This document shows positions 18,549 through 18,731 of a stretch of 64,000 nucleotides of DNA, in pieces. A program made the translations under genes and the position numbers. Every line of letters starts with the position of its first letter. Position 1 is the first letter of the stretch. Origin of the DNA: a virus (taxonomy: Duplodnaviria > Heunggongvirae > Uroviricota > Caudoviricetes); IMG/VR virus record IMGVR_UViG_2799112330_000002, positions 1 to 64,000 of that record. One strand, written 5' to 3'. Below the pieces are notes generated by a model. That model worked only from the letters and a program-made list of their open reading frames with translations. It ran no database searches and was not told the DNA's origin.

Positions 18549-18637
18549 GCCTCAATCGTATATCGGAAATGACTGGAGACAGTTAATTATCTCTGACTCT
18601 TAATCAGATGAGCTGGGTTCGACTCCCAGTTGAGGCA
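18549..18637 (+). tRNA. tRNA-Lys(CTT) with extra hairpin in D-loop
   Basis: TCTGA-CTCTTAA-TCAGA; D-loop insert TGACTG-GAGA-CAGTTA. Confidence 0.8.
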
Positions 18638-18642
18638 CATTT

Positions 18643-18731
18643 GGATCCTTCGTATATCGGTAAGTGCTGGCAACAGACGATTATCTCAGACTTTTAATCT
18701 GATGAGCTGGGTTCGACTCCCAGAGGATCCA
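18643..18731 (+). tRNA. tRNA-Lys(TTT) with extra hairpin in D-loop
   Basis: TCAGA-CTTTTAA-TCTGA; D-loop insert GTGCTG-GCAA-CAGAC. Confidence 0.8.

What the first reader, a model, noticed from the sequence alone, without database searches (positions are those of the whole stretch)
18549..18731. Tandem tRNA-Lys(CUU/UUU) pair with GNRA-capped hairpins inserted in the D-loop
Both have TCGTATATCGG followed by an extra ~16-nt hairpin of different sequence (GAGA versus GCAA loop) before the D-stem 3' strand. Structure is conserved while sequence differs. A conventional Lys(UUU) also exists at 17553. They may be armoured versions of a commonly attacked tRNA, and they are a second kind of D-loop graft in this genome (inference).
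Basis: partly seen in the sequence, partly recalled or inferred. Interest (0 to 1): 0.7.

Follow-up and report, generated by a model that had tools for sequence, protein, structure and literature searches.

The report
Phage lysine tRNAs with fifth arm
Large gut phages carry a conserved lysine tRNA with an extra small hairpin grafted into its D-loop; it probably still delivers lysine and may help it escape bacterial tRNA-cutting defences, and I found no paper describing it.

Summary
Confirmed. Two intact tRNA-Lys genes (CUU 18549-18638, UUU 18643-18732) of a 410-kb T4-like jumbo phage, misbinned in a MAG, have 19 nt between G19 and A21 instead of about 2, folding into a GNRA hairpin. ARAGORN miscalls them Asn and Val. 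They belong to a family: 23 other contigs (17 distinct sequences, all Lys-UUU) from jumbo and code-15 crAss-like phages; no match in 185,579 GTDB genomes. The acceptor, anticodon and T stems covary strongly. Lysine identity (anticodon, A73) and the elbow bases are intact, the hairpin persists in 19/19, and no hairpin-less copy of this scaffold was found. The body is a Bacteroidales Glu/Gln-type core with a lysine anticodon. In one near-complete genome it is the only tRNA-Lys. Corrections: the hairpin core is shared rather than different, the tandem pair and CUU copy are unique to this phage, and the graft is independent of Ro60. Most likely a mature five-armed decoding tRNA (~0.7); shielding against tRNA-Lys nucleases is inference (~0.45). 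Excision is unlikely, but one low-depth RNA contig with 17 unplaced missing bases is unresolved. No paper found; this scan noted the same design on other DNA.

The parts
18549..18638 (+). tRNA-Lys(CUU) with D-loop hairpin; the only Lys(CUU) tRNA found on the 410-kb contig; gene ends A73-C74
   Evidence: model R1 99.5 bits (in its training set) vs <=50 bits for ordinary tRNAs of the window
18567..18585 (+). 19-nt segment between G19 and A21 of copy 1; hairpin 18570-18585, 6 bp, GAGA loop 18576-18579
   Evidence: -5.4 kcal/mol; 0.04% of shuffles as stable
18643..18732 (+). tRNA-Lys(UUU) with D-loop hairpin, the family's typical form (98% identical to L079)
   Evidence: R1 107.2 bits
18661..18679 (+). 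19-nt segment between G19 and A21 of copy 2; hairpin 18664-18678, 2 bp + bulge + 3 bp, GCAA loop 18670-18673
17553..17626 (+). conventional tRNA-Lys(UUU), host-like body (normal D-loop, 5-nt variable loop)
43964..45280 (+). RtcB RNA ligase (context: tRNA repair; not found in three of five other carriers)
11220..12917 (+). Ro60/TROVE protein (context; no match in five other carriers)

Best explanation
These are mature, unspliced, five-armed lysine tRNAs. SHOWN: intact cloverleaf, lysine identity elements, conserved elbow bases, and a conserved GNRA hairpin placed after G19 on a body like Bacteroidales tRNA-Glu/Gln (U15, G48, no base 47, T-loop with C59). INFERRED: host enzymes add the missing CA, the host class II LysRS charges it from the anticodon and A73, and it reads AAA/AAG during infection. 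The hairpin leaves the D-loop at 20/20a, the side where class II tRNAs carry their long variable arm (own knowledge of tRNA-Ser structure), so the ribosome may tolerate it. PURPOSE (inferred): the foreign body plus the added arm removes or masks the D-loop surface that host tRNA-Lys nucleases read, keeping lysine decoding alive when host tRNA-Lys is cut. It is one of several divergent tRNA-Lys bodies these phages keep. Odds: hairpin retained in a decoding tRNA about 0.7; anti-nuclease purpose, given that, about 0.65.
For: (1) Covariation in 19 distinct sequences: 99.2% of cells paired, 13 pairs with two-sided changes, 0/500 shuffles reach it, slid controls 36-43%; the signal comes mostly from the three tRNA stems. 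(2) Hairpin: GNRA loop in 18/19, closing pair G-C to A-U in L217, lower stem re-paired in copy 1. (3) The anticodon is always lysine (18 UUU, 1 CUU) although the viral search left it free; A73 19/19; lysine identity is the anticodon plus A73 (PMC9976931); class I LysRS in only 1/41 Bacteroidales. (4) In G003 (194.5 kb, CheckV 100%, linear) it is the only tRNA-Lys in a set covering all 20 amino acids. (5) Never found without the hairpin in IMG/VR. (6) It occurs in distant phages: only about 36 proteins of the jumbo contig hit each crAss-like genome. (7) Related clusters hold 3-5 divergent tRNA-Lys, some with a long variable arm. (8) AriB contacts D-loop U16/U17, U16C impairs cleavage and U39A abolishes it (PMC12409363); 5/19 members have A39, while copy 1 keeps the E. 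coli cut-site sequence and would need another shield. (9) Weak: one contig from an RNA library spans copy 2 with the hairpin and no gaps (record 6).
Against: No charging, translation or cleavage data. Energy models prefer a non-tRNA fold C in all 19, and fold B fits 17/19. The D-stem pairs hardly vary, so they carry little covariation evidence. Most carriers also have ordinary tRNA-Lys genes, so decoding by this copy is not required. C16 is already common in Bacteroidales tRNA-Lys (7 of 10), so it is no sign of escape. The host and its nucleases are unknown; all nuclease data are from enterobacteria. The RNA contigs may be DNA or precursor.
Confidence: 0.48

Rival explanations
1. A functional five-armed tRNA-Lys whose hairpin serves something other than nuclease escape: stabilising a weak 3-bp D-stem on a borrowed scaffold, docking a phage or host protein via the GNRA loop, or tuning ribosome or EF-P contacts.
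For: The insert is 85% conserved in sequence, more than the stems (68-73%), which suits a docking or tertiary role better than a pure steric shield. The D-stem has only 3 pairs plus U13-U22.
Against: The loop varies (GAAA 8, GAGA 8, GCAA 2, a hexaloop in L222). The same weak D-stem works without a hairpin in about 50 other viral tRNA-Lys. No candidate partner gene is shared except an unannotated 215-aa lipoprotein-like ORF. This does not explain why only lysine.
Confidence: 0.2
2. A non-decoding decoy: a tRNA-Lys look-alike that binds and jams a tRNA-Lys nuclease or sensor, possibly by switching between the cloverleaf and an alternative fold (B: normal D-arm with the insert at position 26; C: G18-G19 paired with the D-stem 3' strand).
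For: It usually sits beside ordinary tRNA-Lys genes. Bases 8-19 and the T-loop are near invariant. Fold C is the energy minimum in all 19 and fold B pairs fully in 17/19. Phage tRNAs as competitive AriB inhibitors are raised in PMC12409363.
Against: Sole tRNA-Lys in G003 and sole Lys(CUU) here. Every decoding feature is kept, including a synonymous anticodon switch. Fold C is complete in only 7/19 and buries G18-G19; fold B is broken in copy 1 and L222, both of which keep fold A.
Confidence: 0.17
3. The extra 17 nt are a mini-intron removed in vivo (like archaeal D-arm introns) or by a phage or host nuclease plus RtcB, giving an ordinary tRNA-Lys.
For: The length resembles archaeal D-arm intervening sequences (median about 22 nt; bioRxiv 10.64898/2026.10.13.758758). 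RtcB is encoded here. Removing 17 nt would give a normal D-arm in either of two registers. One RNA-library contig (depth 4) over 18466-18649 has 19 gap letters and is 15 nt short, i.e. 17 left out and 2 put in, at places the tool did not list (record 5).
Against: No bulge-helix-bulge can be drawn (by hand). No EndA in the assembly. No RtcB in the two complete carriers. No intron-less allele found, unlike the optional introns of Lak phage tRNAs. Another RNA contig keeps the insert and no listed joint skips it. A 17-nt loss could also be a reverse-transcriptase jump or a strain difference.
Confidence: 0.1
4. A neutral or decaying duplication of the D-stem 3' strand; pseudogene.
For: The insert begins like a normal Glu/Asp-type D-arm end, so it may have arisen by duplication.
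Against: Dozens of compensatory changes in the stems, a conserved hairpin, and spread across distant phages.
Confidence: 0.05

Closest known systems
Bacterial class I tRNA-Lys (Rfam RF00005; Bacteroidales tRNA-Lys)
   Same: 7/5 acceptor branch, 7-nt anticodon loop with UUU or CUU, A73, G18-G19, T-loop
   Different: 17-19 extra nt forming a hairpin in the D-loop; U15/G48 and a 4-nt variable loop instead of G15/C48 and a 5-nt loop; different D-stem
Bacteroidales tRNA-Glu(UUC) and a tRNA-Gln(UUG) (best insert-free hits of model R1)
   Same: D-loop A14-U15-C16-G18-G19, 4-nt variable loop ending A46-G48, often the same T-loop; the Gln gene L316 has the same D-stem on both strands
   Different: They are 75-76 nt with no hairpin and a Glu or Gln anticodon; 64 bits at most vs 99-114 for family members
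Nuclease-resistant phage tRNAs (T5 tRNA-Lys vs PARIS AriB, PMC11464382 and PMC12409363; phage tRNA-Thr vs P2-OLD, PMC12445682; PMC10264068)
   Same: Phage-encoded copy of a heavily attacked tRNA, altered in the D-loop and anticodon stem
   Different: Known escapes are point changes on a normal cloverleaf; here a whole helix is added; resistance untested
Non-canonical tRNAs: allo-tRNAs, E-loop tRNAs, tRNA-Sec, tRNA-Pyl (PMC5389517, PMC7609411)
   Same: Natural tRNAs with altered secondary structure, some in phages
   Different: Those have 8/4 or 9/3 branches, long D-stems, or an extra loop between acceptor and D-stem; none described there has a hairpin branching from the D-loop
Archaeal D-arm tRNA introns (EndA/BHB; bioRxiv 10.64898/2026.10.13.758758)
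   Same: About 20-nt insertion in the D-arm that annotators miss
   Different: No BHB and no EndA; bacterial phage; fixed in one isotype with a conserved GNRA hairpin

Membership tests
Elongator tRNA-Lys (RF00005) | 7-bp acceptor, 5-bp anticodon and 5-bp T stems | tested here: met
   99-100% paired with compensatory changes in 19 sequences
Elongator tRNA-Lys (RF00005) | Lysine identity: anticodon UUU/CUU and A73 | tested here: met
   19/19; identity rule from PMC9976931
Elongator tRNA-Lys (RF00005) | Core bases U8, A14, G18, G19, A21, U33, G53, U54, U55, C56, A58 | tested here: met
   Invariant columns in A1
Elongator tRNA-Lys (RF00005) | D-loop of 7-11 nt and purine15-pyrimidine48 Levitt pair | tested here: not met
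   D-loop enlarged by 14-19 nt; U15/G48, also seen in 11 of 521 insert-free tRNAs
Elongator tRNA-Lys (RF00005) | Expressed, lysylated and used by the ribosome | not testable with these tools
   Only assembled contigs from RNA libraries
Nuclease-resistant phage tRNA (T5 tRNA-Lys type) | Resists host tRNase and rescues infection | not testable with these tools
   A39 in 5/19; copy 1 keeps U39-C40-A41
Archaeal-type tRNA intron | Bulge-helix-bulge at the junctions and an EndA endonuclease | tested here: not met
   No BHB by inspection (bulges fall on the wrong side of the helix); PF01974 absent while it rings in 4 archaeal controls
Archaeal-type tRNA intron | Insert absent from mature RNA | tested here: inconclusive
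   One RNA contig keeps it; one has 17 unplaced missing letters
Y RNA / Ro60-associated tRNA chimera | Ro-binding module and linked Ro60 gene | tested here: not met
   The insert lacks the module seen at 97-235; no Ro60 match in 5 other carriers (search had no positive control)
Allo-tRNA | 8/4 or 9/3 acceptor branch with long variable arm | tested here: not met
   7/5 branch, 4-nt variable loop

The most novel reading that the evidence does not exclude
A natural, translating five-armed tRNA whose D-loop arm is a dedicated counter-defence device: it takes the place of a class II variable arm, passes through the ribosome, and blocks or traps D-loop-reading tRNA-Lys nucleases; spread horizontally between jumbo and crAss-like phages and missed by annotators.
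Probability: 0.35. Interest if true: 0.8.

Novelty: new variant of a known kind. Interest (0 to 1): 0.62.

Why it matters
If it decodes, it widens the known shape tolerance of bacterial translation: a helix branching from the D-loop was not reported in the papers I searched, and hairpin-tagged tRNAs usually lose activity (PMC7590224), so it marks a natural grafting site for tRNA engineering. It also offers a clean test of how phage tRNAs escape tRNA-Lys nucleases: one defined 17-nt element can be deleted or transplanted. ARAGORN mislabels these genes (Val, Ala, Asn, Gln) or misses them, which distorts phage tRNA inventories.

Tried and rejected
An exact pattern in IMG/VR gave 0 hits; looser patterns found the family. 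blastn against 50,697 named phage records found only partial matches to ordinary Tyr and Lys tRNAs. The GTDB pattern scan gave 49 matches, none a tRNA. Model R1 on 151 Bacteroidales genomes gave only insert-free tRNAs, with few candidates scored per genome, so 'not found in those searched'. ARAGORN's Asn/Val calls rejected. BHB and kink-turn motifs tried by hand and rejected. No phage class II aaRS domain on the contig. Ro60 and RtcB rejected as obligatory partners. The promoter/terminator scan was at chance level. C16 as an escape signature was dropped because hosts often have it. The missing C75-A76 is not special; most tRNA genes here lack it. The RNA runs were contigs only, with partial cover in X16, X18 and X19; the holes prove nothing, and the 222-nt skip over the tRNA-Asn intron may be intron-less strains. 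Literature searches found no description; subscription journals are largely missing from that library.

Full report
SETTING. The window is the start of a 410-kb contig (GC 29%) inside a 1.9-Mb MAG. It has a T4-like major capsid gene, about 40 tRNA genes and a tmRNA. Shine-Dalgarno-like starts occur in 4% of its ORFs against 52% in the rest of the bin. It is therefore a misbinned jumbo phage; a Bacteroidota host is inferred from the missing SD signals and the tmRNA tag (own knowledge). Relatives holding 33-48% of the sampled words come from cattle and sheep gut in several studies.

OBSERVATION. Both genes are complete cloverleaves. Between G19 and A21 lie 19 nt instead of about 2. Copy 1 (CUU) folds these into 6 bp with a GAGA loop; copy 2 (UUU) into 2 bp, a bulge and 3 bp with a GCAA loop. 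The inner three pairs are the same in both. ARAGORN takes the hairpin for the anticodon arm; Rfam places the true arms and a D-loop insertion.

FAMILY. Pattern scans found the design in 14 IMG/VR and 9 metagenome contigs, 17 distinct sequences. All read UUU, although the anticodon was left free in the viral search. Inserts are 19 nt, 21 nt, or 16 nt once. Pairwise identity goes down to 67%; the stems are 68-87% conserved, the insert 85%, and bases 8-19, the anticodon loop and the T-loop 99-100%. On the cloverleaf-plus-hairpin structure 99.2% of cells pair and 13 pairs show two-sided changes, beyond all 500 shuffles and all slid controls; most of this comes from the three ordinary stems, with two pairs in the hairpin. 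The loop is GNRA in 18 of 19. No insert-free lysine tRNA with this D-arm start was found in IMG/VR, and no member in GTDB or in 151 Bacteroidales genomes searched. Carriers include two ~190-kb genomes that use code 15 and have 3,000-aa ORFs (crAss-like by inference) and share only about 36 protein hits with this phage, which implies horizontal spread or great age. The CUU copy and the tandem pair are seen only here; the two copies are 78% identical.

SCAFFOLD. The best insert-free matches are Bacteroidales tRNA-Glu(UUC) and a tRNA-Gln(UUG), with U15, G48, a 4-nt variable loop and often the same T-loop. Host tRNA-Lys has G15, C48 and a 5-nt loop. So this is a lysine anticodon on a foreign body, plus an arm.

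WHICH FOLD. Three folds compete. A: D-loop hairpin, D-stem closed by the strand just before the anticodon stem. B: a normal D-arm closed by the first bases of the insert, the rest extruded at position 26. C: G18-G19 paired with the D-stem 3' strand. Energies favour C in all 19, but such models also misfold the ordinary tRNA at 17553. A is complete in 19/19, B in 17/19, C in 7/19. The two sequences that break B (copy 1 and L222) re-pair the hairpin as A requires, and only A keeps both the elbow and the D/anticodon stack. I give A about 0.75, B 0.15, and C or switching 0.10.

IS IT USED. Lysine identity is the anticodon plus A73 (PMC9976931); both are kept, and the only anticodon change is synonymous. 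Bacteroidales almost never show class I LysRS and the phage has no class II synthetase domain, so host class II LysRS is the inferred charger. In G003 the hairpin gene is the only tRNA-Lys of a full amino-acid set; G004 has a second, with a degenerate T-loop. Here copy 1 is the only Lys(CUU), and AAG makes up 32 per 1000 codons. A contig from an RNA library spans copy 2 with the hairpin; this is weak, since DNA or precursor could supply it.

EXCISION. There is no BHB, no EndA, no RtcB in the two complete carriers and no intron-less allele. One loose end remains: X15 record 5 (depth 4) over 18466-18649 lacks 17 letters and gains 2 at places not listed. The size matches the insert, but it could lie elsewhere or be a reverse-transcriptase jump or strain variant.

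WHY. tRNA-Lys(UUU) is the target of PrrC (PMC10264068), AriB (PMC12409363) and bacterial Schlafen (PMC13056530). AriB needs distal contacts, including D-loop U16/U17, and T5 tRNAs differ from host tRNAs in the D-loop (PMC12475279). Carrier phages hold 3-5 tRNA-Lys genes on different bodies, three of them with a long variable arm, one closed by nearly the same CUG-GAAA stem-loop; extra variable arms also occur on Glu, Met, Thr, Asn, Gln and Trp tRNAs. This fits shape diversification under nuclease pressure, with the D-loop arm as an alternative way to add bulk. It remains inference: no host nuclease is known here, and C16 is common in the likely hosts.

KNOWN AND NEW. It works like a nuclease-evading phage tRNA and passes every sequence test for tRNA-Lys except D-loop size and the Levitt pair. 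It is not an allo-tRNA, an archaeal intron or a Ro60/Y chimera. Nine literature searches found no natural tRNA with a hairpin branching from the D-loop. This scan's own unchecked notes report the same Lys gene in another genome and similar D-loop arms on Glu and Tyr tRNAs, so the design may be general; I did not test those. Verdict: real, conserved, apparently undescribed variant; interest 0.62.

Noticed in passing
window 18466-18548: Conserved ~83-nt RNA ending in CCA directly before copy 1, with a long terminal stem; homologues at 77-82% identity in L005, L068, L086, L221; no Rfam match; follows the hairpin tRNA in one RNA-library contig.
   Followed up: partly
   Followed up: partly
window 17055-17348, 18835-19109, 4697-4988, 5101-5565: Group I-like introns in the anticodon loops of tRNA-Asn, Leu, Arg and Thr; a 222-nt skip over the first is seen in two RNA runs.
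   Followed up: partly
window 17707-17886, 17963-18060, 16836-16963, 18141-18380: Intergenic stretches in the tRNA cluster with no Rfam hit; the last three are conserved in related phages (75-89% identity), the first is covered by RNA contigs: probable undescribed ncRNAs.
   Followed up: partly
window 16488-16571, 603-683, 1118-1198; C82 408626 and 409141; L123:1433, L213, L219: Long variable arms on tRNAs that are normally class I (Thr, Trp, Pro, Met, Glu, Lys, Asn, Gln).
   Followed up: partly
window 23819-23890: tRNA with CUA anticodon (amber suppressor-like) in a genome that reads almost as well in code 11 as in code 15 (coding 0.85 vs 0.86); one large ORF near C82 261 kb extends under code 15.
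   Followed up: no
window 6565-6635: tRNA-like gene with a 6-nt anticodon loop rich in U; identity unclear, possibly another aberrant Lys tRNA.
   Followed up: no
window 20188-20835: 215-aa lipoprotein-like ORF with no Pfam or PHROG hit, found in or near tRNA clusters in L052, L058, L079, L083, G003 and G004.
   Followed up: partly
window 4237-4324; L210 near 12893: Arg(ACG)-like gene with an enlarged D region and weak anticodon stem; a Gly(UCC) gene in L210 has a D-loop about 9 nt longer than normal.
   Followed up: no
L005:8810-8884, L086:3192, L052:6081: Other tRNA-Lys variants beside the hairpin gene, including C33 in the anticodon loop (L005, L086): further lysine-tRNA diversification.
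   Followed up: no
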